DNA of 64,000 bases, taken from assembly GCF_009931435.1 (NCBI RefSeq), contig NZ_CP043414.1; one strand, 5' to 3'. A program made the translations under genes and the position numbers. Below are positions 7,566-19,024 of the stretch, piece by piece (the first letter of the stretch is position 1; each line of letters opens with the position of its first letter). The notes under the pieces were generated by a model. That model was not told the DNA's origin. It worked only from the letters and a program-made list of their open reading frames with translations, and ran no database searches. Source of the DNA: Escherichia coli. GTDB lineage: Bacteria; Pseudomonadota; Gammaproteobacteria; Enterobacterales; Enterobacteriaceae.

Positions 7566-8255
7566 ATGAGCAACCAAGGCGAATACCCCGAAGATAATCG
7601 GGTTGGGAAGCACGAGCCGCACGATTTTAGTTTGACCCGCCGCGATCTGATTAAAGTGAGCGCCGCAACGGCGGCGACCGCCGTGGTTTATCCTCATTCT
7701 ACGCTTGCGGCAAGCGTTCCGGCAGCTACACCCGCGCCAGAGATAATGCCCCTGACACTTAAGGTGAACGGCAAAACCGAGCAGCTTGAGGTGGATACCC
7801 GAACCACGCTACTGGACGCTTTGCGTGAAAATCTGCATCTGATCGGTACCAAGAAAGGTTGCGATCACGGACAGTGCGGAGCCTGTACCGTACTGGTCAA
7901 TGGTCGCAGGCTTAATGCCTGCCTGACGCTGGCAGTCATGCATCAGGGGGCCGAGATCACCACCATTGAAGGCCTGGGTTCACCAGAGAATCTTCACCCC
8001 ATGCAGGCGGCCTTTATCAAGCATGATGGCTTCCAGTGCGGCTACTGCACCTCCGGGCAAATTTGCTCATCAGTAGCGGTGCTAAAAGAGATTCAGGACG
8101 GCATTCCCAGTCACGTCACGGTCGATTTGGTTTCCCCTCCAGAAAGAACTGCCGATGAGATCCGTGAACGTATGAGCGGCAACATCTGTCGCTGTGGTGC
8201 ATACGCTAACATCCTTGCCGCCATTGAAGACGCTGCGGGGGAGATAAAATCATGA
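7566..8255 (+). CDS. paoA: PaoA, periplasmic aldehyde oxidoreductase 2Fe-2S subunit
   Basis: 229 aa; Tat-type signal ([19 protein letters not shown]); ferredoxin Cys clusters ([25 protein letters not shown]); SD GGAGG upstream. Confidence 0.9.
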
Positions 8256-9208
8256 AGGCGTTTACCTATGAACGTGTGAACACCCCTGCCGAGGCGGCAC
8301 TTAGCGCTCAGCGCGTACCCGGCGCAAAATTTATCGCTGGCGGGACCAATCTGCTGGACCTGATGAAGCTGGAAATTGAAACGCCAACCCACCTTATCGA
8401 TGTGAACGGGCTCGGGCTCGATAAGATTGAAGTGACCGACGCGGGTGGGCTGCGCATCGGCGCACTGGTACGGAACACCGACCTGGCGGCTCACGAGCGC
8501 GTGCGTCGTGATTACGCGGTACTCTCCCGCGCTCTGCTCGCTGGCGCGTCTGGTCAGTTACGTAATCAGGCAACCACCGCAGGTAATCTGCTCCAGCGCA
8601 CGCGCTGCCCCTATTTTTACGACACCAATCAGCCCTGCAATAAGCGCCTGCCCGGGAGCGGCTGCGCGGCACTTGAAGGCTTTAGCCGTCAGCACGCGGT
8701 GGTAGGCGTAAGCGAAGCCTGCATTGCCACCCATCCGAGCGATATGGCGGTCGCAATGCGGTTGCTGGATGCGGTGGTGGAAACCATCACGCCGGAGGGA
8801 AAAACTCGCAGTATCACACTGGCTGATTTTTATCACCCACCGGGGAAAACGCCGCACATTGAAACCGCCCTGCTTCCCGGTGAGCTTATCGTTGCGGTGA
8901 CGTTACCTCCGCCGCTCGGCGGAAAACATATCTACCGCAAGGTGCGCGATCGCGCCTCCTACGCCTTTGCCCTGGTATCGGTCGCGGCGATTATTCAGCC
9001 TGACGGCAGCGGGCGCGTCGCGCTGGGCGGAGTAGCACATAAGCCCTGGCGCATTGAGGCTGCGGATGCTCAGCTATCCCAGGGGGCGCAGGCCGTGTAT
9101 GACGCGCTGTTCGCCAGCGCCCATCCCACCGCTGAAAATACCTTTAAACTCCTGTTGGCGAAGCGAACGCTTGCCTCCGTACTGGCTGAAGCGAGGGCAC
9201 AGGCATGA
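8252..9208 (+). CDS. paoB: PaoB, FAD-binding subunit
   Basis: 318 aa; 4-nt start/stop overlap with paoA; recognised as YagS/PaoB. Confidence 0.9.
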
Positions 9209-11403
9209 AATTTGATAAACCCGCAGGGGAAAACCCGATCGATCAGCTGAAGGTTGTCGGTCGTCCCCATGACCGCATCGACGGACCGCTGAAAACTACC
9301 GGCACGGCACGCTACGCCTACGAATGGCATGAAGAAGCCCCCAACGCCGCCTATGGCTATATCGTCGGTTCCGCCATTGCCAAAGGACGCCTCACCGCCC
9401 TAGATACGGACGCCGCGCAAAAAGCGCCGGGCGTACTGGCTGTCATTACCGCCAGTAACGCTGGGGCACTCGGCAAAGGCGACAAAAACACCGCCAGGCT
9501 GTTAGGCGGCCCCACTATTGAGCACTATCATCAGGCCATTGCGCTGGTAGTGGCCGAGACCTTCGAACAGGCGCGAGCGGCGGCCTCGCTGGTGCAGGCG
9601 CACTATCGCCGTAATAAAGGAGCTTACTCCCTGGCGGACGAGAAACAGGCCGTCAGTCAGCCGCCGGAAGACACGCCCGATAAAAACGTTGGTGACTTTG
9701 ACGGGGCTTTCACCTCCGCTGCAGTGAAAATTGATGCTACATACACGACCCCGGACCAGAGCCATATGGCGATGGAGCCGCATGCCTCGATGGCCGTCTG
9801 GGATGGAAATAAGCTTACCCTCTGGACCTCAAATCAGATGATTGACTGGTGCCGCACCGATCTGGCAAAAACGCTGAAAGTGCCCGTGGAGAATGTGCGT
9901 ATTATCTCCCCGTATATCGGCGGAGGGTTTGGCGGCAAGCTATTCCTGAGAAGCGATGCGCTGCTGGCGGCCCTCGCCGCCCGTGCGGTGAAACGTCCGG
10001 TTAAAGTGATGCTCCCCCGCCCCACTATTCCCAATAACACCACGCACCGCCCCGCCACCCTTCAGCACCTGCGTATCGGTGCCGACCAGAGCGGGAAAAT
10101 CACCGCTATCTCACATGAAAGCTGGTCCGGAAACCTGCCCGGCGGCACGCCGGAAACGGCGGTACAGCAAAGCGAATTACTCTACGCAGGGGCAAACCGT
10201 CATACCGGCCTGCGGCTCGCCGCGCTTGATTTGCCGGAAGGGAACGCCATGCGTGCGCCCGGCGAAGCCCCCGGTCTGATGGCGCTCGAAATCGCGATCG
10301 ACGAACTGGCGGAAAAAGCGGGCATCGATCCCGTCGAGTTTCGCATCCTGAATGACACTCAGGTTGACCCCGCCGACCCGACGCGCCGCTTCTCTCGCCG
10401 TCAGCTTATCGAGTGCTTGCGCACCGGAGCGGATAAATTTGGCTGGAAGCAGCGCAACGCTACACCCGGACAGGTGCGCGACGGGGAGTGGCTAGTCGGC
10501 CACGGTGTTGCGGCGGGCTTTCGCAATAATCTGCTGGAAAAATCGGGTGCTCGGGTTCACCTCGAACAAAATGGCACCGTTACCGTAGAAACGGACATGA
10601 CCGACATTGGCACCGGCAGCTACACCATTCTGGCCCAGACGGCAGCGGAAATGCTTGGCGTACCGCTGGAGCAGGTTGCGGTTCACCTCGGCGATTCCAG
10701 TTTCCCGGTTTCTGCGGGTTCTGGTGGACAATGGGGCGCGAATACCTCCACCTCCGGCGTTTACGCCGCCTGTGTGAAACTTCGCGAAATGATTGCCTCG
10801 GCGGTCGGGTTTGATCCTGAGCAGTCGCAGTTTGCCGACGGCAAGATTACCAACGGTACCCGAAGCGCCACGCTACATGAGGCCACCGCAGGCGGCAGAC
10901 TGACAGCGGAAGAGAGCATTGAGTTCGGCACTCTCAGCAAGGAGTACCAGCAATCGACCTTTGCCGGGCATTTTGTGGAGGTCGGCGTGCATAGCGCGAC
11001 GGGAGAAGTTCGGGTCCGGCGTATGCTCGCCGTGTGCGCAGCGGGGCGCATTCTGAATCCGAAAACTGCACGCAGCCAGGTCATTGGCGCGATGACTATG
11101 GGCATGGGCGCGGCACTGATGGAGGAGCTGGCGGTAGATGACCGTTTGGGCTACTTCGTTAATCACGATATGGCGGGGTATGAGGTGCCGGTTCATGCGG
11201 ATATCCCAAAACAGGAGGTGATTTTCCTGGATGATACCGACCCCATCTCCTCCCCGATGAAGGCCAAAGGTGTCGGTGAGCTGGGCCTGTGCGGCGTGAG
11301 CGCGGCTATCGCCAACGCGGTGTATAACGCCACCGGTATTCGGGTACGGGATTATCCCATCACTCTGGATAAGCTGCTCGATAAACTGCCGGATGTGGTT
11401 TAA
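9205..11403 (+). CDS. paoC: PaoC, molybdopterin-binding catalytic subunit
   Basis: 732 aa; 4-nt overlap with paoB; xanthine dehydrogenase-family large subunit; recognised as YagR/PaoC. Confidence 0.9.
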
Positions 11404-11412
11404 GGAGGAACA

Positions 11413-12369
11413 ATGTCATACTCGCTTTTTGACAAAGACGAGCACTGGCATAAGCCAGAGCAGGCGTTTCTCACCGATGACCACCGGACCATTCTGCGCT
11501 TCGCCGTAGAGGCGCTAATGTCCGGTAAAGGAGCGGTGCTGGTGACGCTGGTGAAGATACGCGGCGGCGCGGCGCGCCCGCTCGGAGCACAGATGGTGGT
11601 GCGCGAAGATGGTCGTTACTGCGGTTTTGTCTCTGGCGGCTGCGTGGAGGCCGCTGCCGCTTTTGAAGCGCTGGAGGTGATGGGCTCAGGCTGCGATCGC
11701 GAAATTCGCTATGGCGAAGGTTCGCCGTGGTTTGACATCGTTCTGCCCTGCGGCGGTGGGATCACGCTGACGCTCCATAAACTACGCTCGGCACAGCCTC
11801 TGCTCGCCGTGCTGAACCGCCTGGAACAGAGAAAACCGGCGGGTCTGCGCTACGATCCGCAAGCTCAATCGCTGGTGTGCCTGCCCACGCAAACCCGAAC
11901 GGGCTGGAATCTCAATGGCTTTGAGGTGGGGTTCAGGCCATGCGTCAGGCTGATGATTTACGGACGTTCTCTTGAGGCGCAGGCAACCGCGAGTCTTGCA
12001 GCAGCCACAGGCTATGACAGCCATATCTTCGATATTTTTCCGGCCTCAGCCAGCGCTCAGATCGATACCGATACGGCGGTCATTTTGCTGTGCCATGATC
12101 TCAACCGGGAGCTGCCAGTGTTGCAGGCCGCGCGAGAGGCAAAACCCTTTTATCTCGGCGCATTGGGCAGCTATCGAACCCACACGTTACGTCTGCAAAA
12201 GCTCCACGAGCTAGGATGGTCCAGGGAGGAGACAGCGCAAATCCGGGCACCCATCGGGATATTCCCCAAAGCCCGGGATGCGCATACTCTGGCACTCTCC
12301 GTGCTGGCAGAAGTCGCTTCTGTACGTCTCCATCAGGAGGAGGATTCATGCCTGCCCCCGTCGTCGTGA
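11413..12369 (+). CDS. paoD: PaoD, XdhC-type molybdenum cofactor insertion chaperone
   Basis: 318 aa; last gene of paoABCD; recognised as YagQ/PaoD. Confidence 0.85.
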   Translation: MSYSLFDKDEHWHKPEQAFLTDDHRTILRFAVEALMSGKGAVLVTLVKIRGGAARPLGAQMVVREDGRYCGFVSGGCVEAAAAFEALEVMGSGCDREIRYGEGSPWFDIVLPCGGGITLTLHKLRSAQPLLAVLNRLEQRKPAGLRYDPQAQSLVCLPTQTRTGWNLNGFEVGFRPCVRLMIYGRSLEAQATASLAAATGYDSHIFDIFPASASAQIDTDTAVILLCHDLNRELPVLQAAREAKPFYLGALGSYRTHTLRLQKLHELGWSREETAQIRAPIGIFPKARDAHTLALSVLAEVASVRLHQEEDSCLPPSS

Positions 12370-12547
12370 TCCTTGCGGCCGGGCGTGGAGAGCGCTTTCT
12401 CGCCTCCGGGGGAAATACCATAAATTAAGAGAAAAATCTGCAGTAGCCGTTTTAGAAAATCACCTAAATCGTTTAAAAGAGCGCCCAACCCATAGTGGGC
12501 GCTCATCGCCTTGTGTAACTTATTCAGCAACGCGCGCCCTCGCCGGA

Positions 12548-13741
12548 CTAAAGCGCACCGGCCTTCTGGCGTGCGGTAACAAAGGTCAGTACGCCAGCGC
12601 AAAGGAGCAGCACGCTACTCATAGCAAACGTGCTCTGCCAGCCAAGGCGGTCAAACACAATGCCTCCTGCCGTTGATCCAAGGGCGATGGCGAGCTGAAT
12701 CACCGCGACCATGAGCCCGCCTCCGGCTTCGGCGTTGTCAGGCAACGTACGCGCAATCCATGTCCACCATCCGGTTGGCGCGGCGGTGGCCAGCATGCCC
12801 CAGAGTCCTAACAGCAGCGAGACCGTCCAGACGTGATGCCCGATAAGCATCAGACCGATAGCAATGACGGCCATAAGTCCGGGTATGGCCATCAGCGTGG
12901 GGTAGAATTTTCTGTTGAGAAATGCCGAAACAACCAGCGTGCCAATAAAACCGGCCACGCCGATAATCAGCAAAATCAACGACAAGCCTGAGGAATTAAC
13001 CCGTGTCACCGACTCCAGAAACGGGCGCACATAGGTGAATAGCGCAAACTGCCCCATGAAAAACAGGCCACAAGCTATCATGCCGACCACAACCATGCGG
13101 CGGCTAAATAAGCGGAATACCGTGCCAAATGACGTGTGGCTTTTATTCGCATCCATACTGGGCAGGCTGATGCACTGCCAGATAAAGGCGACAACCGCCA
13201 TGGGCACCAGGCACAAGAAAGCGCCTCGCCATCCGACCGTAGCCCCCAGATAGCTTCCCAGCGGCGCGGCCACGACCGTCGCCAGCGCATTACCGGCATT
13301 GAAAATCGCCAGCGCACGCGTGACCTGTTGCTGCGGCACCAGACGAATCGCCGTTGCCGCAGACATCGACCAGAATCCGCCAATAGCCACACCAATCATC
13401 GCACGACCGACCATATACATCAGATAACTGGAAGCCAGCGCAATAATAAGCCCCGAGACGGCCATCAGAACCGTCATCCCCAGCAGCAGGAACTTACGAT
13501 TCATCTTTCCAGCTAGCGTTGAAAGCGTCAGGCTGGTCAGAACCGCCAGCGCGCCGGAGATAGCAATCCCCTGCCCTGCCAGCCCCTCCGTCACGCCTAA
13601 ATCGCGGGTAATCGGCGTGAGCAGGCTGACGGGCATAAATTCAGAAGCAATCAGCACAAACACGCACAGGGTCATGGCAAAAATACCGCCCCAGTATGCG
13701 TGCTGATGATGAGGTGATGGTGTTTGGCTTAGTGTCGACAT
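12548..13741 (-). CDS. MFS-family transporter
   Basis: 397-aa ORF, about 12 hydrophobic helices, typical MFS composition; no specific ortholog recognised. A hairpin (about 12479-12503) followed by a T-run on the minus strand looks like its terminator. Confidence 0.75.
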   Translation of the reverse strand: MSTLSQTPSPHHQHAYWGGIFAMTLCVFVLIASEFMPVSLLTPITRDLGVTEGLAGQGIAISGALAVLTSLTLSTLAGKMNRKFLLLGMTVLMAVSGLIIALASSYLMYMVGRAMIGVAIGGFWSMSAATAIRLVPQQQVTRALAIFNAGNALATVVAAPLGSYLGATVGWRGAFLCLVPMAVVAFIWQCISLPSMDANKSHTSFGTVFRLFSRRMVVVGMIACGLFFMGQFALFTYVRPFLESVTRVNSSGLSLILLIIGVAGFIGTLVVSAFLNRKFYPTLMAIPGLMAVIAIGLMLIGHHVWTVSLLLGLWGMLATAAPTGWWTWIARTLPDNAEAGGGLMVAVIQLAIALGSTAGGIVFDRLGWQSTFAMSSVLLLCAGVLTFVTARQKAGAL

Positions 13742-13816
13742 AGTGAAATTTCACAAAGATCAGGATAAAAGCCACCGGCCATAGACCGGTGGCTTTGCAT
13801 CAATTCAGGAGAGGTT

Positions 13817-14965
13817 TTATTTCAGTTTGGTCTGGAAAAATTGTTCGAACTTCGCGAAAGGTATTTTTCCGGCCACGTTATCGTACAGGTCCACGTGATT
13901 TGCCCCTGGTACCACCACCAGCTCTTTGTCTTTACTGCCAACCGCCTTGTAAGCATCTTCAGCAAAATAGCGTGAATGCGCTTTCTCACCGGTCACAATC
14001 AGCGTCGGAATGGTGATTTCACTGGCGTAGCTCAACAGCGGCATATTCATAAATGACAGCGGCATCGTTGCCGTCCACGCCCCGGTAGAGTTAACGGAAC
14101 GTTCGTGGAAGCCGCGCGGCATGCGATAGTAGTCAAAGAACTCTTTCAGTACCGGATGAGGATTTGCCGGCAGCGTTTCTGGCAGAATACGCTCGCCCGC
14201 ACTGACCTTGCCGTTGCTGTCGACATTAATATCATGACCACCGTGAGCGAACGTTCCGCTCTGCGCATCCTTCCAGCGCTGTTCATTCAGATATTGCAGA
14301 ACAGCACGACGGTCGGCGGTAGAATAACGGTCTTTGCCATCCCCCACACCATGGCCCATCGCCCGGCTCATGTCATACATCACGCTGGTAGCTACCGCTT
14401 TAACGCGGGTATCCATCGCCGCGTCGTTCAGCGCCATGCCGCCCCAGCCACAAATACCGAGCAGCCCGATACGGTTGCGATCTACCTCTTTTTGCAGCCC
14501 TAAGAAATCCACCGCCGCGCTGAAATCTTCAGTGTTGATATCCGGTGAAGCGACGTTTCGCGGATAGCCGCCGCTTTCCCCGGTGTAAGAAGGATCGAAC
14601 GCCAGGGTAACAAACCCTCGTTCCGCCAGCGTCTGCGCATACAGGCCGCTGGATTGCTCTTTCACCGCGCCAAATGGCCCACTGACCGCAATCGCCGCCA
14701 GCTTGCGATCGCCACGGTCTTTAGGCAGGTAAAGATCGCCCACTAAGGTGATGCCATATCGGTTCGGGAACGAGACTTTACGGTGATCGACTTTCTGGCT
14801 CTCGGCGAACGTTTTATCCCATTTATCTGTCATGGACACAGGGGCATTAGGATTGGTTGAATCAGCATAACTCATTGTCGTGACTCCACTTAATGATGCG
14901 AAAAGCAGCATGGTCGGCATCGCGATTTTTAGCGTTCGGGTGAAGGCTTTCATAAAAATCCCCAT
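13817..14965 (-). CDS. Secreted alpha/beta-hydrolase-like protein (dienelactone-hydrolase-like, Cys in nucleophile position)
   Basis: Track ORF 13817-14974 begins with TTG; first ATG placed at 14965 (start uncertain). Signal peptide-like N-terminus; nucleophile-elbow-like GICGWGG with Cys rather than Ser. Confidence 0.65.
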   Translation of the reverse strand: MGIFMKAFTRTLKIAMPTMLLFASLSGVTTMSYADSTNPNAPVSMTDKWDKTFAESQKVDHRKVSFPNRYGITLVGDLYLPKDRGDRKLAAIAVSGPFGAVKEQSSGLYAQTLAERGFVTLAFDPSYTGESGGYPRNVASPDINTEDFSAAVDFLGLQKEVDRNRIGLLGICGWGGMALNDAAMDTRVKAVATSVMYDMSRAMGHGVGDGKDRYSTADRRAVLQYLNEQRWKDAQSGTFAHGGHDINVDSNGKVSAGERILPETLPANPHPVLKEFFDYYRMPRGFHERSVNSTGAWTATMPLSFMNMPLLSYASEITIPTLIVTGEKAHSRYFAEDAYKAVGSKDKELVVVPGANHVDLYDNVAGKIPFAKFEQFFQTKLK

Positions 14966-15139
14966 AAAAAACAACAGAGAGATACAGGTTTCCGACGGAC
15001 AACACTGCGGTGCTTTACTTTGATGGGGTCATTATAGTGAGCAGAATTAGTGCTGATTAGGGGGCGATTAATGCTAAGATTAATACCATATTGTTATAAA
15101 TTAATGCGGAGATTGCCGGCATGAAGGGGGGATGTTTCA

Positions 15140-16024
15140 ATGGCGAAAAGGGAGAACTACAACGAGCTGTACCTGTTTATGCAGGTGGTGCGGGAAGGCA
15201 GCTTTACCGCAGCGGCTCAGCGGCTGGGTCTTGCTCAGTCAGGAGTCAGCCGTTCTGTTCGCGAGCTTGAAGAAAGGCTCGGCGTCCAGCTGCTGGTGCG
15301 CACCACGCGTAAACTGTCGCTGACGCAAGCAGGCGAGCAGCTCTACCAGAAGACGGCATCTGGATTTGAAATGTTAGATCTTGGGCTTGCCACACTGGCG
15401 CACTATCGAGAGACGCCCTCCGGCACGGTGCGTATCAATGCCAGCCAGCACGCGATTGATAAATGCCTGCTGCCAAAGCTGGCGGTATTTAAACAGCGAT
15501 ATCCTGATATCCGGCTTGAACTGATAAATGAGAGCCGGTTCGTCGATATCATCGAGGAAAGATTCGATGCTGGTGTCCGCCTGGGGCCTGAAGTCGGCCA
15601 GGGTATGGTCGCGGTACGCATCACGCCCGATATGGAGATGGCAATTGTGGGGACTCCGGAACATTTTCGTCGCTATGGTTTTCCGCAAACCCCGGCGGAT
15701 TTAAAGGCGCATCCCTGTATCGCCTATCAGTTTGCCGACGGCAGCGTATACCAGTGGGAACTCAATCAGGATGATAAAAAAATCACTCATCGCCCTGAAG
15801 GGCAATGGGCCCTATCCGACAGCTATATGGAAGCAGAAGCCGCACGGCTGGGCCTCGGATTGGCCTATGTTCCTGTTGAACTGGTTGCGGATGATTTAGA
15901 ACACGGTAAGCTTATCAGAGTGTTGCAGCGTTACAGCCTGCGAATGGAGGGATTGTTTCTCTATTACCCTCATCGCAACGTCTCCCCCGCTCTGCGGATG
16001 GTCATTGATACATTGAAAATCTGA
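15140..16024 (+). CDS. LysR-family transcriptional regulator
   Basis: 294 aa; N-terminal HTH (FTAAAQRLGLAQSGVSRSVRELEERLGVQLL) and LysR substrate-binding domain; divergent from the hydrolase gene. Confidence 0.8.
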   Translation: MAKRENYNELYLFMQVVREGSFTAAAQRLGLAQSGVSRSVRELEERLGVQLLVRTTRKLSLTQAGEQLYQKTASGFEMLDLGLATLAHYRETPSGTVRINASQHAIDKCLLPKLAVFKQRYPDIRLELINESRFVDIIEERFDAGVRLGPEVGQGMVAVRITPDMEMAIVGTPEHFRRYGFPQTPADLKAHPCIAYQFADGSVYQWELNQDDKKITHRPEGQWALSDSYMEAEAARLGLGLAYVPVELVADDLEHGKLIRVLQRYSLRMEGLFLYYPHRNVSPALRMVIDTLKI

Positions 16025-16734
16025 ACGTTAACAACGACCGACTCTTCACTGTGCAATATTGTGTCAGGTAGTCACTCTGCGTTCAATTCCAGGGGCCGCT
16101 TTGAGCGAGAAAGAGCGGACTTATCTGTACAAGGGGACTATCCAGCAATGGAGATCACCCATAAGAAAAAAGTACCTGGCTCCCTCGACAACCTTCATCC
16201 GGGAATTTAGCCTCAATCAACATTTTTATATCTGTCAGGTTACTTCATTATGAAAACCGATCAATATCGTTGTTTTTGTTGCAATAGTAGAATACGCCTA
16301 TTTATTCCTCCATTTCTATTAATAACGGCCATAAACCGTTCACTTCACTGATATTTAAAATATGCATCCTTTTCCTGCTTTTCAAGTTGTTCAGCGGCGT
16401 AAGAAAACGTATTAAATATGAATTCGACGATTTAACCATTTCTGTCTGATTGGTAATCATCTGTGATTAATGCTGGTCTATTGATTACGCCAGCATTAAC
16501 CGCTTAGGGATGTATTCTTCCTGATCATATACATCCCTCGAAAAAGAGAGAAAATAAAACTGTGTCCAATATTACTCTACCACTCCAGACCGAAGTATCG
16601 GTAGAATTAGCAGAACGACTGGTACAATAGATTGGGATAGCGTCATTTGTCAGGTATTCCATTGCCTGACAAATGACAATTTTGAGTCAATAGACGTGCT
16701 TCTTGATCATGTCTTACAAATTATACCATGAACC

Positions 16735-17007
16735 TTATGAAGCATCATTTTTACTGACTGGTGTTAACTTTGCTATCATATAAACTCTGTTCTTAAAAAA
16801 CGCGCCCAGAATTTTATATGATTTCCCTTGTTTTTCTGCCTGTAAAGAAATTTCTTTTTCAGTGCTGTTAATGGTTGAACCGACGGCAGTAATCTTTTTG
16901 GCGACGCTACTGAATGATAATAAAGACAGTGTAACCACAACAATTAAAGAACAGATAGTATTCACGTTAATTCTCCTGACAATTGAGAGGGTGAGTTTTA
17001 TATACAT
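16735..17007 (-). CDS. Small secreted DUF1471-like (YdgH/BhsA/McbA-family) protein
   Basis: 90-aa ORF in an AT-rich stretch; signal-peptide-like N-terminus; mature part (KITAVGSTINSTEKEISLQAEKQGKSYKIL...YMIAKL) fits the DUF1471 pattern of small stress/biofilm proteins. No convincing SD. Confidence 0.4.
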   Translation of the reverse strand: MYIKLTLSIVRRINVNTICSLIVVVTLSLLSFSSVAKKITAVGSTINSTEKEISLQAEKQGKSYKILGAFFKNRVYMIAKLTPVSKNDAS

Positions 17008-17176
17008 AGGTATTAAACATGAGTCATATTTACTCCAAGAGAAAACACTCCTTCTGTAATTAAACCTTCATCTCCTTCGGGGTGAGCAATACATAATGCA
17101 TCTTGCTATGCAAAACAGGTGGATATCAATTTTCCTCCCGACCTATTTAATAAAACGTGAATATAAAAGTTATTCT

Positions 17177-17899
17177 TCAGTTTGCAGATGCAGTAGGTCT
17201 GATGGTAATTTCGGTTGTATCAACGCTTTCGGGAGATTCAATAATATGCCTTACAGCACGGGCAATATCCGCGGGTTGAAGTGCAACAGAACGGTAGGCG
17301 TTCATTGACTTCATGGTTTCCACATGGGTAATGGTTGAAGCCAGTTCACTTTCTACAACCCCAGGATTTACGCAGGTCACACGGATTTTCGAGCTTTCCT
17401 GCCGTAAGCCATCAGAAATAGCCCGTACTGCAAATTTTGATGCGCAATAGACTGCGCCTGTGGGCACAACAGAAAGGGCACCAATAGAACCAAGATTGAT
17501 TATCTGACCGGAACCCTGTGCTTCCATCACCGGAAGTACAGCGCCAATTCCCCAAAGTACGCCTTTGATATTCACGTCAATAGTGAGCTCCCATTCATTT
17601 TGTTTTCCTGCTGCAAGCGGTGAAAGCGGCATAACGCCCGCATTATTGATAAGAACATCAACTCGCCCCCAGCTATCCAGCGCTGCTTGCACGAAATCTG
17701 CCATGGACTGTCGGTCTGTGACATCCAACTCCCGCGCTTTAGCAATTCCTCCTGCGCGGCAGATTTCTTTTGCAATGGCTTCGATACGCTCAAGTCTGCG
17801 TGCTCCCAGTAAAACCTTTGCACCTGCCGTTCCCAGCTCTCTGGCAATACCTTCCCCAATACCACTTGATGCGCCGGTGATTAATATGACCTTATCCAT
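17177..17899 (-). CDS. Short-chain dehydrogenase/reductase (SDR)
   Basis: Track ORF starts at a TTG (17914); start placed at ATG 17899 (MDKVILITGASSGIGEG, classic TGxxxGxG NAD(P)-binding motif) with AAGGAG SD 7 nt upstream. Confidence 0.8.
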   Translation of the reverse strand: MDKVILITGASSGIGEGIARELGTAGAKVLLGARRLERIEAIAKEICRAGGIAKARELDVTDRQSMADFVQAALDSWGRVDVLINNAGVMPLSPLAAGKQNEWELTIDVNIKGVLWGIGAVLPVMEAQGSGQIINLGSIGALSVVPTGAVYCASKFAVRAISDGLRQESSKIRVTCVNPGVVESELASTITHVETMKSMNAYRSVALQPADIARAVRHIIESPESVDTTEITIRPTASAN

Positions 17900-17997
17900 T
17901 ACGTTCTCCTTCAAATGTGTTCGGAGAGAGAATAGAACTTTATGATTGGTTCCAGTATCCTGCTTTCAATGTACTCAATGGTTAGCGGCATTAAACA

Positions 17998-18897
17998 ATG
18001 AAAATCGATCTTAATCTTTTACCCATTTTTATCGCGGTAGCAGAAGAGAGTAATTTCAGTAAAGCCGCCGCACGACTGGGCGTTACCCGTTCAGCGGTCA
18101 GTCAGGGAATAAGACGTCTTGAAGATGCATTCGGGACAATGCTTGTAATGCGGACCACGCGCTCAGTTAATTTGACGGAAGCGGGAGAACGGCTGCATAA
18201 ATCGTTGTCATTACCTTTATCCGGTATTGAGGCAGCGTTCGAAGAGATGGTCTCTGACCATGTACCACGTGGACATCTCAGAATCGCGGTGACGTCGATA
18301 GCAGAAGAATTTCTTTCAGGTCCGCTAATCGCTTCGTTTGCAGCTGCCAATCCAGCCGTTACGCTTGATATTGTTGTCACGGATGAGGAATTCGATATCG
18401 TTGCCGCAGGTTACGATGCTGGCGTAAGGCTCGGAGAGGTCATTGAAAAAGACATGATTGCTGTTCCCCTTACCGGTAAGCAGCGTGAGATGGTCGTTGC
18501 CTCTCCCTCCTATCTCGCAGCCAACAGCACACCTGTTCATCCGCGCGAACTTGTGAATCATAAGTGTATCGGCTGGCGTCAGTCCCCGGAGGTTGCGCCT
18601 TATCGCTGGCCATTTGAAGAAAACGGTAGAGCTTTCGACCTTGCGATTGAACCGCAGATTACGACGAATGATCTGCGTCTGATGTTGAGGCTGGCTCTTG
18701 CCGGCGGAGGAATAACAATTGCCACTCAGGAAACGTTCAGGCCATATATTGAAAGCGGTAAGCTTGTATCGCTGCTTGATGACTTTCTTCCACAATTTCC
18801 GGGCTTCTATCTGTATTTCCCACAGCGTCGCAATATTGCACCAAAGCTCCGCGCCCTGATTGACCACGTCAAGGAATGGCGGCAGCAATTGGCTTAA
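17998..18897 (+). CDS. LysR-family transcriptional regulator
   Basis: 299 aa, HTH near N-terminus (FSKAAARLGVTRSAVSQGIRRLE); divergently transcribed from the SDR gene. Confidence 0.8.
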   Translation: MKIDLNLLPIFIAVAEESNFSKAAARLGVTRSAVSQGIRRLEDAFGTMLVMRTTRSVNLTEAGERLHKSLSLPLSGIEAAFEEMVSDHVPRGHLRIAVTSIAEEFLSGPLIASFAAANPAVTLDIVVTDEEFDIVAAGYDAGVRLGEVIEKDMIAVPLTGKQREMVVASPSYLAANSTPVHPRELVNHKCIGWRQSPEVAPYRWPFEENGRAFDLAIEPQITTNDLRLMLRLALAGGGITIATQETFRPYIESGKLVSLLDDFLPQFPGFYLYFPQRRNIAPKLRALIDHVKEWRQQLA

Positions 18898-19024
18898 ATG
18901 TCTGCACCTGCACTGCCTGATGTCAGAACAGTATTTTGAGAAATTGCCAGGGTTACAATGGCACAAATACGGCACAGGAGGAAAACGTGGTGTAATTGAA
19001 TGTGAGGTAACTTATTGATTTAAA

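What the first reader, a model, noticed from the sequence alone, without database searches (positions are those of the whole stretch)
12548..16024. Secreted hydrolase with Cys in the nucleophile-elbow position, divergently paired with a LysR regulator and followed by an MFS transporter
The 380-aa hydrolase has GICGWGG where serine hydrolases carry GxSxG, as in dienelactone-hydrolase-type enzymes, and has a signal-peptide-like N-terminus. With the divergent LysR regulator and adjacent MFS transporter it looks like a small inducible catabolic or detoxification unit of unknown substrate.
Basis: inference. Interest (0 to 1): 0.3.

Follow-up and report, generated by a model that had tools for sequence, protein, structure and literature searches.

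The report
Exported cysteine hydrolase with regulator and pump
This is a real three-gene unit found in about one in six E. coli genomes: a LysR regulator, an exported alpha/beta hydrolase that uses cysteine where most relatives use serine, and a membrane pump. The enzyme family is widespread and has solved structures, but no known substrate.

Summary
The window encodes an MFS transporter (12548-13741, minus), an alpha/beta hydrolase (13817-14953, minus, 378 aa from the ATG) and a divergent LysR regulator (15140-16024, plus).

The hydrolase's only cysteine, Cys168 in G-I-C-G-W-G-G, sits between a strand and a helix in a confident model. It aligns with the catalytic Ser of PET46 and 7QJM and with Cys123 of dienelactone hydrolase. 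It is Cys in 224 of 231 relatives, and four of the five Gly variants have also lost His353.

Most homologues carry Sec, Tat or lipoprotein signals, so the enzyme probably works outside the cytoplasm. The intergenic region has an invariant ATA-N9-TAT LysR box about 66 bp upstream of the inferred transcription start. A conserved terminator-like hairpin separates the hydrolase from the MFS gene.

K-12 has lost the unit by deletion. O157:H7 Sakai has it as ECs_0309-0311. A regulated periplasmic hydrolysis and efflux (detoxification) unit is the best reading. The substrate is unknown. Interest is modest.

The parts
15140..16024 (+). LysR-type transcriptional regulator (294 aa), divergent from the hydrolase
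   Evidence: Pfam HTH_1 (E 1.4e-23) and LysR_substrate (E 4.7e-35). Best NCBIfam model is YafC, 192 bits against a cut-off of 470. 41% identical to K-12 PgrR. The exact sequence is common in E. coli.
15083..15097 (-). Predicted LysR recognition box ATAACAATATGGTAT (ATA-N9-TAT, contains T-N11-A)
   Evidence: Lies inside the block ATTTATAACAAT.T..TAT.AAT, which is nearly invariant across Escherichia, Kluyvera, Enterobacter, Hafnia and E. cloacae while the flanks vary. Centre is about 66 bp upstream of the inferred transcription start (sequence). Function is inferred.
15050..15060 (-). Conserved block CTAATCAGCAC overlapping the weak -35 region; a possible LysR activation site
   Evidence: Nearly invariant in 7 sequences. 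The -35 hexamer TAATCA matches the consensus at 3 of 6 positions (read). Function is inferred.
15031..15036 (-). Predicted -10 hexamer TATAAT of the hydrolase promoter
   Evidence: Perfect consensus, invariant in all 7 aligned intergenic regions. Not reported by the promoter scan because the -35 is weak.
13817..14953 (-). Alpha/beta hydrolase of the PA2218/YcjY clade, 378 aa precursor (stop codon 13817-13819)
14864..14953 (-). Signal peptide, residues 1-30, predicted cleavage after SYA
   Evidence: Charged/hydrophobic/cleavage-region layout read from the sequence. Residues 1-32 are unmodelled (pLDDT below 50). Homologues in other phyla carry Sec, twin-arginine or lipobox signals at the same place.
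14438..14458 (-). Nucleophile elbow G166-I-C168-G-W-G-G172 (Cys168 codon TGT at 14450-14452)
   Evidence: It is the only Cys in the protein.
13895..13897 (-). His353 codon, in the motif G-A-N-H-V-D-L-Y-D after the last core strand; predicted catalytic base
   Evidence: His in 227 of 231 relatives. Lost in 4 of the 5 sequences that lost the Cys. Position after strand 343-348.
14372..14374 (-). Asp194 codon (M-Y-D-M after strand 184-190); candidate third triad residue
   Evidence: Asp in 219, Asn in 8 and Glu in 1 of 231. The canonical acid position is Ala325. The assignment is inferred, and YcjY lacks this residue.
13768..13796 (-). Terminator-like hairpin AAAGCCACCGG-TCTATGG-CCGGTGGCTTT followed by a U-tract, between the hydrolase stop and the MFS start
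   Evidence: Folding energy -25.3 kcal/mol, z-score -5.7. The stem is kept by compensatory changes in Hafnia and E. cloacae.
12548..13741 (-). MFS transporter (397 aa), 12-helix drug/H+ antiporter type, related to NepI, SotB and Cmx efflux pumps
   Evidence: Pfam MFS_1 E 1e-37. NCBIfam NepI E 2e-88, 297 bits, below the cut-off of 584. The start context TATGTC is invariant across genera. Orthologues lie next to the hydrolase in 9 of the 16 loci that have one.
12479..12504 (-). Hairpin downstream of the MFS stop codon, followed by UUUUAAAC on the minus strand; likely MFS terminator, convergent with paoD
   Evidence: Folding energy -18.3 kcal/mol, z-score -2.6. Sequence.

Best explanation
This is a LysR-controlled unit for hydrolysing a small molecule outside the cytoplasm.

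1. The LysR protein binds the conserved ATA-N9-TAT box between the divergent genes. It controls a promoter with a perfect -10 and a weak -35, most likely activating it when a co-inducer is bound.
2. The hydrolase is made as a 378-aa precursor, exported by the Sec pathway and cleaved after residue 30.
3. In the periplasm its single cysteine (Cys168), paired with His353, attacks a carbonyl of an ester, lactone or thioester substrate to form a thioester acyl-enzyme. Water then hydrolyses this intermediate.
4. The oxyanion hole is expected from the backbone NH groups of Gly169 and Phe94.
5. The 120-residue cap (195-316) carries the nearly invariant motif YY-x-x-P-R-G-x-H, which probably binds an anionic group of the substrate.
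6. The usual Asp after strand 7 is replaced by Ala325. The enzyme therefore works either as a Cys-His pair or with a relocated acid (Asp194, or less likely Glu323 or Asp355).
7. A conserved hairpin with a U-tract after the hydrolase gene lets only part of the transcripts continue into the MFS gene, which encodes an efflux-type pump.

Together the enzyme and pump most likely neutralise and expel a toxic exogenous compound.

Shown here: gene anatomy, fold, position and conservation of Cys and His, export signals across the family, conserved operator and hairpin.

Inferred: direction of regulation, chemistry of the substrate, and the detoxification role.
For: - Cys at the nucleophile position.
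- Conservation: Cys in 224 of 231 relatives. There are two natural Ser replacements, both keeping His. Four of the five Gly variants have also lost His353.
- Single Cys in an exported protein, hence no disulfide partner.
- Export: Sec, Tat or lipobox signals in most of about 75 homologues from many phyla. The N-terminus is unmodelled.
- Regulation: invariant LysR box and -10 hexamer across 5 genera. The paralogous pair ycjY/pgrR has the same divergent layout, and PgrR is reported to regulate ycjY.
- LysR, hydrolase and MFS travel together into different genomic contexts in Kluyvera, Hafnia, E. cloacae, Psychrobacter and Vogesella.
- Efflux-type MFS: the best named models are NepI, SotB and Cmx.
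- Detoxification flavour of neighbours elsewhere: aldo-keto reductase, short-chain dehydrogenase, cupin, CMD, flavodoxin and hexapeptide acetyltransferase. On plasmid pLEC-5e18 the neighbours are hmpA and formaldehyde dehydrogenase.
- Hairpin conserved with compensatory changes.
Against: - No substrate, activity or expression data exist for this protein, for PA2218 or for YcjY in the searched literature.
- The third triad residue is unidentified. The canonical position is Ala.
- Trp at nucleophile+2 is unusual for this fold and is unexplained.
- The MFS gene is missing next to the hydrolase in 3 of 7 enterobacterial loci and in most non-proteobacterial loci, so the pump is not essential to the enzyme's role.
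- PgrR, the closest characterised regulator, is described as a repressor, so activation is not certain.
- The direction of transport by the MFS cannot be read from sequence.
- A few homologues lack a signal peptide.
Confidence: 0.6

Rival explanations
1. Catabolic or scavenging unit. The periplasmic hydrolase splits an ester, lactone or conjugate that cannot enter the cell. The MFS protein imports one product as a nutrient, and the LysR protein senses the product or substrate.
For: - The layout of LysR, hydrolase and transporter is equally typical of small catabolic operons.
- Conserved Arg280 and His283 in the cap suggest a carboxylate-bearing, metabolite-like substrate.
- MFS direction cannot be read from sequence.
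Against: - No downstream catabolic enzymes are linked in E. coli or in relatives.
- The linkage to pao genes is confined to Escherichia.
- The MFS is closest to exporter families (NepI, SotB, Cmx), not to nutrient symporters.
- The MFS is dispensable in many loci.
- Neighbours elsewhere are redox or detoxification types.
Confidence: 0.2
2. Cell-envelope housekeeping. Like its paralogue YcjY, which is co-regulated with murein-peptide genes by PgrR, the enzyme acts on peptidoglycan-derived peptides or another envelope component in the periplasm.
For: - The hydrolase is 34% identical to YcjY and the LysR protein 41% identical to PgrR, with the same divergent layout.
- PgrR is listed as the regulator of peptidoglycan recycling, with ycjY-ymjDC-mpaA in its regulon.
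- The periplasmic location fits an envelope substrate.
Against: - YcjY has no signal peptide and its own activity is unknown.
- No murein genes (mpaA, mppA, ycjG equivalents) lie near this unit in any of 80 loci.
- The unit is absent from 83% of E. coli genomes and sits on plasmids, which is unlike a housekeeping function.
Confidence: 0.1
3. Acyl-transfer or thioesterase enzyme, like its nearest characterised structural relatives. These are the fungal polyketide-handling hydrolases DcsB and GrgF. The enzyme would act on a thioester-bound or lipid-bound acyl group rather than hydrolysing a free small molecule.
For: - GrgF is described as a cysteine hydrolase in bioRxiv 10.1101/2020.12.16.421545.
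- A Cys nucleophile suits thioester chemistry.
Against: - Only about 20% identity to these enzymes.
- No polyketide or non-ribosomal peptide genes in any neighbourhood.
- Carrier-protein thioesters are not available in the periplasm.
Confidence: 0.05
4. The Cys is not catalytic. The protein would be a binding protein or pseudo-enzyme, and the motif a coincidence.
For: - The canonical acid is missing (Ala325) and a bulky Trp sits at nucleophile+2.
- A few relatives have Gly instead of Cys.
Against: - Cys and His are each kept in about 97% of relatives, and four of the five Gly variants lost His too.
- Natural Ser replacements exist.
- Cys168 lies exactly at the strand-turn-helix elbow.
Confidence: 0.03

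Closest known systems
PA2218 of Pseudomonas aeruginosa (PDB 2HDW, structural-genomics 'hypothetical protein')
   Same: - Identical GICGWGG, GERAHSRYF and GASHVDLYD motifs.
- Has an N-terminal extension of about 35 residues.
- Its neighbours by locus-tag number are the membrane protein OpdE (PA2219) and a transcriptional regulator (PA2220).
   Different: - No function is known for PA2218 either.
- Orthology of OpdE to the MFS here was not tested.
YcjY-PgrR module of E. coli K-12 (PDB 5XB6 for YcjY)
   Same: - Paralogous pair with the same divergent layout.
- Hydrolase 34% identical, with Cys in GICAGAG and the motif GANHMDLYD. LysR protein 41% identical.
- PgrR is reported to control ycjY.
   Different: - YcjY has no signal peptide (306 aa).
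- It has Gly at nucleophile+2 and lacks Asp194.
- It is followed by ymjD-ymjC-mpaA rather than an MFS gene.
- PgrR is called a repressor.
Dienelactone hydrolase ClcD (PDB 1DIN; Pfam PF01738)
   Same: - Alpha/beta hydrolase with a Cys nucleophile.
- Cys168 aligns with Cys123.
- It works through a thioester acyl-enzyme on a carboxylate-bearing lactone, which is a reasonable chemical model.
   Different: - DLH is cytoplasmic, has 236 aa, has no large cap, and uses Asp171 after strand 7. Here that position is Ala.
- The DLH elbow is G-Y-C-L-G-G.
Fungal polyketide hydrolases DcsB (7D78) and GrgF (6LZH), and Chloroflexus esterase '202' (7QJM)
   Same: - Similar core and cap.
- GrgF is reported as Cys-dependent.
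   Different: - About 20% identity.
- 7QJM has Ser in GISLGG and a canonical Asp that aligns with Ala325.
- The fungal enzymes are cytosolic and sit in biosynthetic contexts.
UilS quorum-quenching acyl-homoserine lactonase (NCBIfam NF047920; Serratia marcescens, PMC11633161)
   Same: It is the best-scoring named NCBIfam model (E 2e-18) and is a DLH-like lactonase.
   Different: - Score 67 bits against a cut-off of 400, and only the N-terminal half aligns.
- UilS is cytoplasmic.

Membership tests
Alpha/beta-hydrolase fold superfamily | Eight-stranded core fold | tested here: met
   [not shown]
Alpha/beta-hydrolase fold superfamily | Nucleophile on a sharp turn between strand 5 and the following helix | tested here: met
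   Cys168 lies between strand 157-167 and helix 169-180. It aligns with the catalytic Ser or Cys of PET46, 7QJM and DLH.
Alpha/beta-hydrolase fold superfamily | Small residues at nucleophile-2 and nucleophile+2 (G-x-Nu-x-G) | tested here: not met
   Position -2 is Gly166. Position +2 is Trp170 (Trp in 170, Phe in 40 of 231 relatives), followed by Gly-Gly.
Alpha/beta-hydrolase fold superfamily | Catalytic His after the last core strand | tested here: met
   His353 follows strand 343-348. It is His in 227 of 231 relatives and is lost in 4 of the 5 sequences that lost the Cys.
Alpha/beta-hydrolase fold superfamily | Acid (Asp or Glu) in the loop after strand 7 | tested here: not met
   The position that aligns with the Asp of 7QJM and PET46 is Ala325 (Ala in 223 of 231). 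An alternative acid cannot be located without coordinates.
PA2218/YcjY clade (uncharacterised; PDB 2HDW, 5XB6) | Full-length similarity and shared motifs G-I-C-[GA]-x-[GA]-G and G-A-x-H-x-D-L-Y-D | tested here: met
   E 8.6e-125 to PA2218 and 5e-44 to YcjY. Profile search gives 2.9e-154 and 1.3e-81. Motifs are visible in the alignments.
Dienelactone hydrolase family (PF01738) | Significant full-length match to the family profile | tested here: not met
   21.1 bits against a cut-off of 21, covering only profile positions 76-125 of 217. hhalign probability 26%.
Dienelactone hydrolase family (PF01738) | Cys nucleophile equivalent to Cys123 | tested here: met
   Cys168 aligns with Cys123.
Dienelactone hydrolase family (PF01738) | Asp171-type acid after strand 7, and Glu36 next to the oxyanion hole | tested here: not met
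   Ala325 occupies the acid position. Pro93 aligns with Glu36, although that alignment has low confidence.
UilS acyl-homoserine lactonase (NF047920) | Score at or above NCBI's cut-off of 400 bits | tested here: not met
   67.1 bits, partial match.
LysR-type transcriptional regulators | N-terminal HTH_1 domain plus C-terminal LysR substrate-binding domain | tested here: met
   E 1.4e-23 and 4.7e-35.
LysR-type transcriptional regulators | Divergent target gene with a T-N11-A dyad in the shared spacer | tested here: met
   186-bp spacer. ATAACAATATGGTAT at 15083-15097 lies in a block that is nearly invariant across genera. Binding itself was not tested.
MFS, NepI-type purine ribonucleoside efflux pump (NF007578) | MFS_1 domain; equivalog score of at least 584 bits | tested here: not met
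   The MFS_1 domain is met (E 1e-37). The NepI model scores 297 bits, below the cut-off. It is therefore a relative, not an orthologue.
Sec-dependent signal peptide | Basic N-region, hydrophobic core, small residues at -3 and -1 | tested here: met
   MKAFTRTLK / IAMPTMLLFASL / SGVTTMSYA|D, read from the sequence. No signal-peptide predictor was available. Supported by Sec, Tat and lipobox signals in homologues. Export itself is not testable here.

The most novel reading that the evidence does not exclude
The PA2218-type enzymes form a distinct, horizontally mobile class of extracytoplasmic cysteine alpha/beta hydrolases. Their active site is non-canonical: a Cys-His pair, no strand-7 acid, and an aromatic residue at nucleophile+2. 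Their real job would be to inactivate a class of natural ester, lactone or beta-lactone toxins or signals in the periplasm. That would make them a so far unrecognised resistance or quenching determinant, shared by gut Proteobacteria, Bacteroidota, Melainabacteria and Firmicutes and carried on plasmids.
Probability: 0.15. Interest if true: 0.55.

Novelty: new member of a known kind. Interest (0 to 1): 0.3.

Why it matters
The gene is already annotated, as 'alpha/beta hydrolase' or 'hypothetical protein', and two relatives have crystal structures. Nothing here overturns current knowledge.

The value lies in sharpening an orphan family.
- It is large: 6476 cluster representatives at E <= 1e-3.
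- It is conserved at 50-60% identity across distant phyla.
- It is mostly exported, it is plasmid-borne in 246 records, and it is built around a single catalytic cysteine with an atypical triad.

It is present in O157:H7 and about 17% of complete E. coli genomes but deleted in K-12, which may help explain why it has not been studied. Many RefSeq entries start the gene too late and hide the signal peptide.

The conserved LysR operator offers a direct handle, through a reporter screen, for finding the inducer and hence the substrate.

Tried and rejected
- Single-sequence AlphaFold gave a useless model (pLDDT 36.7). It was repeated with a 31-sequence alignment.
- The afdb50 fold library was not available.
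- Literature searches for YcjY, PA2218, ECs0309-0311 and DcsB returned no functional data on the family. The one relevant PA2218 hit only lists it as the boundary of a deleted region.
- The consensus promoter/terminator scan found nothing in the intergenic regions. The promoter, operator and hairpins were found by reading and aligning the sequence.
- Rfam found no RNA family in 12000-19000.
- I tested whether linkage to the periplasmic aldehyde oxidoreductase genes paoABCD is conserved. It is not conserved outside Escherichia, so a functional link is rejected as unsupported.
- The 'plasmid' hits at 99% identity in E. coli carry pao genes and look like chromosomal fragments, so they were not counted as mobility evidence.
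- Membership of the dienelactone hydrolase family and of the UilS lactonase family was considered and rejected.
- The catalytic acid could not be located because model and PDB coordinates cannot be read with these tools.


Full report
**Setting**

The window is an E. coli-type chromosome segment. It carries ecpB-E, yagU and paoABCD (7566-12369), followed by the three genes of the finding. The 3.7-kb unit is present at about 98.7% identity in 947 of 5426 complete E. coli genomes, where it is annotated 'MFS transporter | alpha/beta hydrolase | LysR family transcriptional regulator'.

O157:H7 Sakai has the unit as ECs_0309 (regulator), ECs_0310 ('hypothetical protein') and ECs_0311 ('transport protein'). 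Its hydrolase differs from the window's at three residues.

K-12 MG1655 lacks the unit. A deletion joins the 3' flank of paoD (window about 12419) to the C-terminal half of a second LysR gene (window 17998-18897). That remnant is what K-12 calls yagP.

**Observation**

The MFS gene (12548-13741, minus), the hydrolase and the LysR gene (15140-16024, plus) are as described.

The mechanical ORF for the hydrolase starts at a TTG (385 aa). The ATG at 14953 follows a GGGGA Shine-Dalgarno-like sequence and gives 378 aa, the commonest length among homologues.

RefSeq often starts at Met27 instead (352 aa). This removes MKAFTRTLKIAMPTMLLFASLSGVTTMSYA|DS, a textbook Sec signal. The upstream reading frame and its signal-like character are kept in seven enterobacterial genera.

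More distant homologues carry their own export signals at the same place:
- Sec signals in many lineages.
- Twin-arginine signals (RRNLLK, RRDLVK, RRELLK, SRRNFMK and others) in at least nine alpha- and beta-proteobacterial loci.
- Lipoprotein signals in Bacteroidota and others.
- Only a few homologues have no signal.

Residues 1-32 are unmodelled in the AlphaFold prediction. Export is therefore a family trait.

**Is the Cys at the nucleophile position?**

Yes. The evidence comes from alignment, structure and conservation.

- HMMER aligns GLLGICGWGG with GVLGLSMGGR of PET46 and with the GISLGG of the Chloroflexus esterase 7QJM, placing Cys on Ser.
- A profile-profile comparison with dienelactone hydrolase aligns Cys168 with Cys123. 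I recalled the DLH sequence from memory and verified it as 1DIN at 530 bits. The overall match is weak, with probability 26%.
- The alignment-based AlphaFold model (pLDDT 89.8, pTM 0.86) has Cys168 as the single residue between strand 157-167 and helix 169-180. His353 follows the last core strand.
- Cys168 is the only cysteine in the protein. This fits a free thiol in the oxidising periplasm.

Across 231 relatives that cover all the relevant columns:

| Position | Residue counts |
|---|---|
| 168 (nucleophile) | Cys 224, Ser 2, Gly 5 |
| 353 (base) | His 227 |
| 194 (candidate acid) | Asp 219, Asn 8, Glu 1 |
| 325 (canonical acid site) | Ala 223 |

Four of the five Gly variants have also lost His353, and both Ser variants keep it. 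This sample is weighted towards close relatives.

**What the active site lacks**

The position that aligns with the catalytic Asp of 7QJM (SDAD) and PET46 is Ala325. Candidate substitutes are:
- Asp194, just after strand 6. YcjY lacks it.
- Glu323 (Glu 208, Asp 10 of 231).
- Asp355 or Asp358 in the H-x-D-L-Y-D motif, which YcjY shares.

I could not resolve this because coordinates are not readable with these tools. The residue at nucleophile+2 is Trp or Phe in 210 of 231 sequences, where this fold normally needs a small residue. This is unexplained.

**Family placement**

The protein is an orthologue-level relative of PA2218:
- phmmer E 8.6e-125 and 58-63% identity.
- Foldseek TM-score 0.96 relative to the target.

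Pfam DLH reaches 21.1 bits over a quarter of the profile. The UilS lactonase model reaches 67 of the 400 bits required.

The family is large: 6476 cluster representatives at E <= 1e-3 and 470 at E <= 1e-30. It is 50-60% identical across Proteobacteria, Bacteroidota, Melainabacteria, Elusimicrobia, Firmicutes, Verrucomicrobia and Campylobacterota, and many of these are gut organisms. It occurs on 246 plasmid records.

**Regulation**

The 186-bp spacer contains a block that is nearly invariant in Escherichia, Kluyvera, Enterobacter, Hafnia and E. cloacae while the flanks vary. Within it:
- ATAACAATATGGTAT (15083-15097) is an ATA-N9-TAT dyad of the T-N11-A type.
- CTAATCAGCAC overlaps a weak -35 (TAATCA).
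- A perfect TATAAT lies at 15031-15036.

The dyad centre lies about 66 bp upstream of the inferred transcription start, which is the usual position for a LysR recognition site. This is inference from sequence and conservation, not a binding test.

The LysR protein is 41% identical to K-12 PgrR. The pgrR gene is divergent from ycjY in the same way, and PgrR is listed with ycjY-ymjDC-mpaA in its regulon. The hydrolase-LysR pair is thus an old, duplicated module. O157 Sakai has a third copy, ECs_0332/0333.

**Link to the MFS gene**

Orthologous MFS genes (44-90% identity) lie within 6 kb of the hydrolase in 16 of 80 species-level loci and directly next to it in 9. A divergent LysR gene is adjacent in 17. 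The flanks of the trio differ between genera, and pao linkage is confined to Escherichia.

Three of seven enterobacterial loci and plasmid pLEC-5e18 have only LysR plus hydrolase.

Between the hydrolase stop and the MFS start lies a hairpin (13768-13796; -25.3 kcal/mol; z-score -5.7) followed by UUUUAU. Its stem is kept through compensatory changes: GCCACC/GGTGGC becomes GCCATC/GATGGC in Hafnia and GCCCCC/GGGGGC in E. cloacae. Only 27 nt separate it from the conserved MFS start. The MFS gene therefore probably depends on read-through, giving more enzyme than pump.

A second hairpin (12479-12504) follows the MFS gene.

The MFS protein is closest to the exporters NepI, SotB and Cmx but is below every equivalog cut-off.

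**Function**

No experimental data were found.

In other phyla the recurrent neighbours are LysR or AraC regulators, a hexapeptide acetyltransferase, a cyclophilin-like protein, a cupin, an aldo-keto reductase, a short-chain dehydrogenase, CMD-family proteins and a flavodoxin. On pLEC-5e18 the neighbours are hmpA and a formaldehyde dehydrogenase. This flavour of neighbourhood, the exporter-type MFS and the absence of linked catabolic enzymes favour a regulated periplasmic inactivation-and-efflux unit over a catabolic one. The preference is moderate.

The rival readings cannot be excluded: nutrient scavenging, envelope-peptide turnover by analogy with YcjY, and acyl transfer by analogy with GrgF and DcsB.

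**Verdict**

The unit is a new, uncharacterised member of known kinds (a Cys alpha/beta hydrolase, a LysR regulator, an MFS pump), with some unusual active-site features. Interest is modest (0.3).

Noticed in passing
window 12420-18490; compare L003 3382-3900: K-12 MG1655 has a deletion of about 6 kb. It joins the paoD 3' flank to the C-terminal half of the second LysR gene (window 17998-18897). The K-12 gene yagP is that remnant, not a remnant of the LysR gene in this finding.
   Followed up: yes
window 17177-18897: A second divergent pair: a short-chain dehydrogenase (17177-17914, minus) and a LysR regulator (17998-18897, plus). In O157 Sakai these are ECs_0306 and yagP ECs_0305.
   Followed up: partly
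window 16000-17100: A low-GC stretch (37-39% against about 55% in the flanks). It holds a 90-aa ORF (16735-17007, minus) with a signal-like N-terminus and no Pfam match. This ORF appears to match ECs_0307 of Sakai. In strain N3 a ykgR fragment, an AbiE toxin-antitoxin pair and a type I restriction system lie downstream of the LysR gene, so this junction varies between strains.
   Followed up: partly
window 14873-14953; L085 9674; L001 10419-11477: In RefSeq the hydrolase starts at internal Met27 (352 aa) in Sakai and strain N3. This cuts off the conserved signal peptide. Other records use the 378-aa start.
   Followed up: yes
L085 30575-33955 (O157 Sakai, outside the window): A third YcjY-like hydrolase (ECs_0332) is divergently paired with a LysR gene (ECs_0333, annotated ycaN) and sits next to an NADH-dependent flavin oxidoreductase. 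The hydrolase-LysR pair is a recurring module in E. coli.
   Followed up: no
L086 (Leclercia plasmid pLEC-5e18) 5917-8137: A hydrolase copy 88% identical at the protein level, with its LysR gene but no MFS gene, sits on a 195-kb plasmid. Its neighbours are hmpA, a formaldehyde dehydrogenase and a GNAT acetyltransferase. In all, 246 plasmid records encode a relative.
   Followed up: partly
window 14444-14446 (Trp170): A bulky aromatic residue sits at nucleophile+2 in the elbow (G-I-C-G-W-G-G). It is Trp or Phe in 210 of 231 relatives but Gly in YcjY. This is atypical for the fold.
   Followed up: partly
protein ids P0149, P0157, P0246, P0169, P0163: A minority branch of the family has Gly in place of the Cys. 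All but P0163 have also lost the His. These are probably non-catalytic derivatives.
   Followed up: partly
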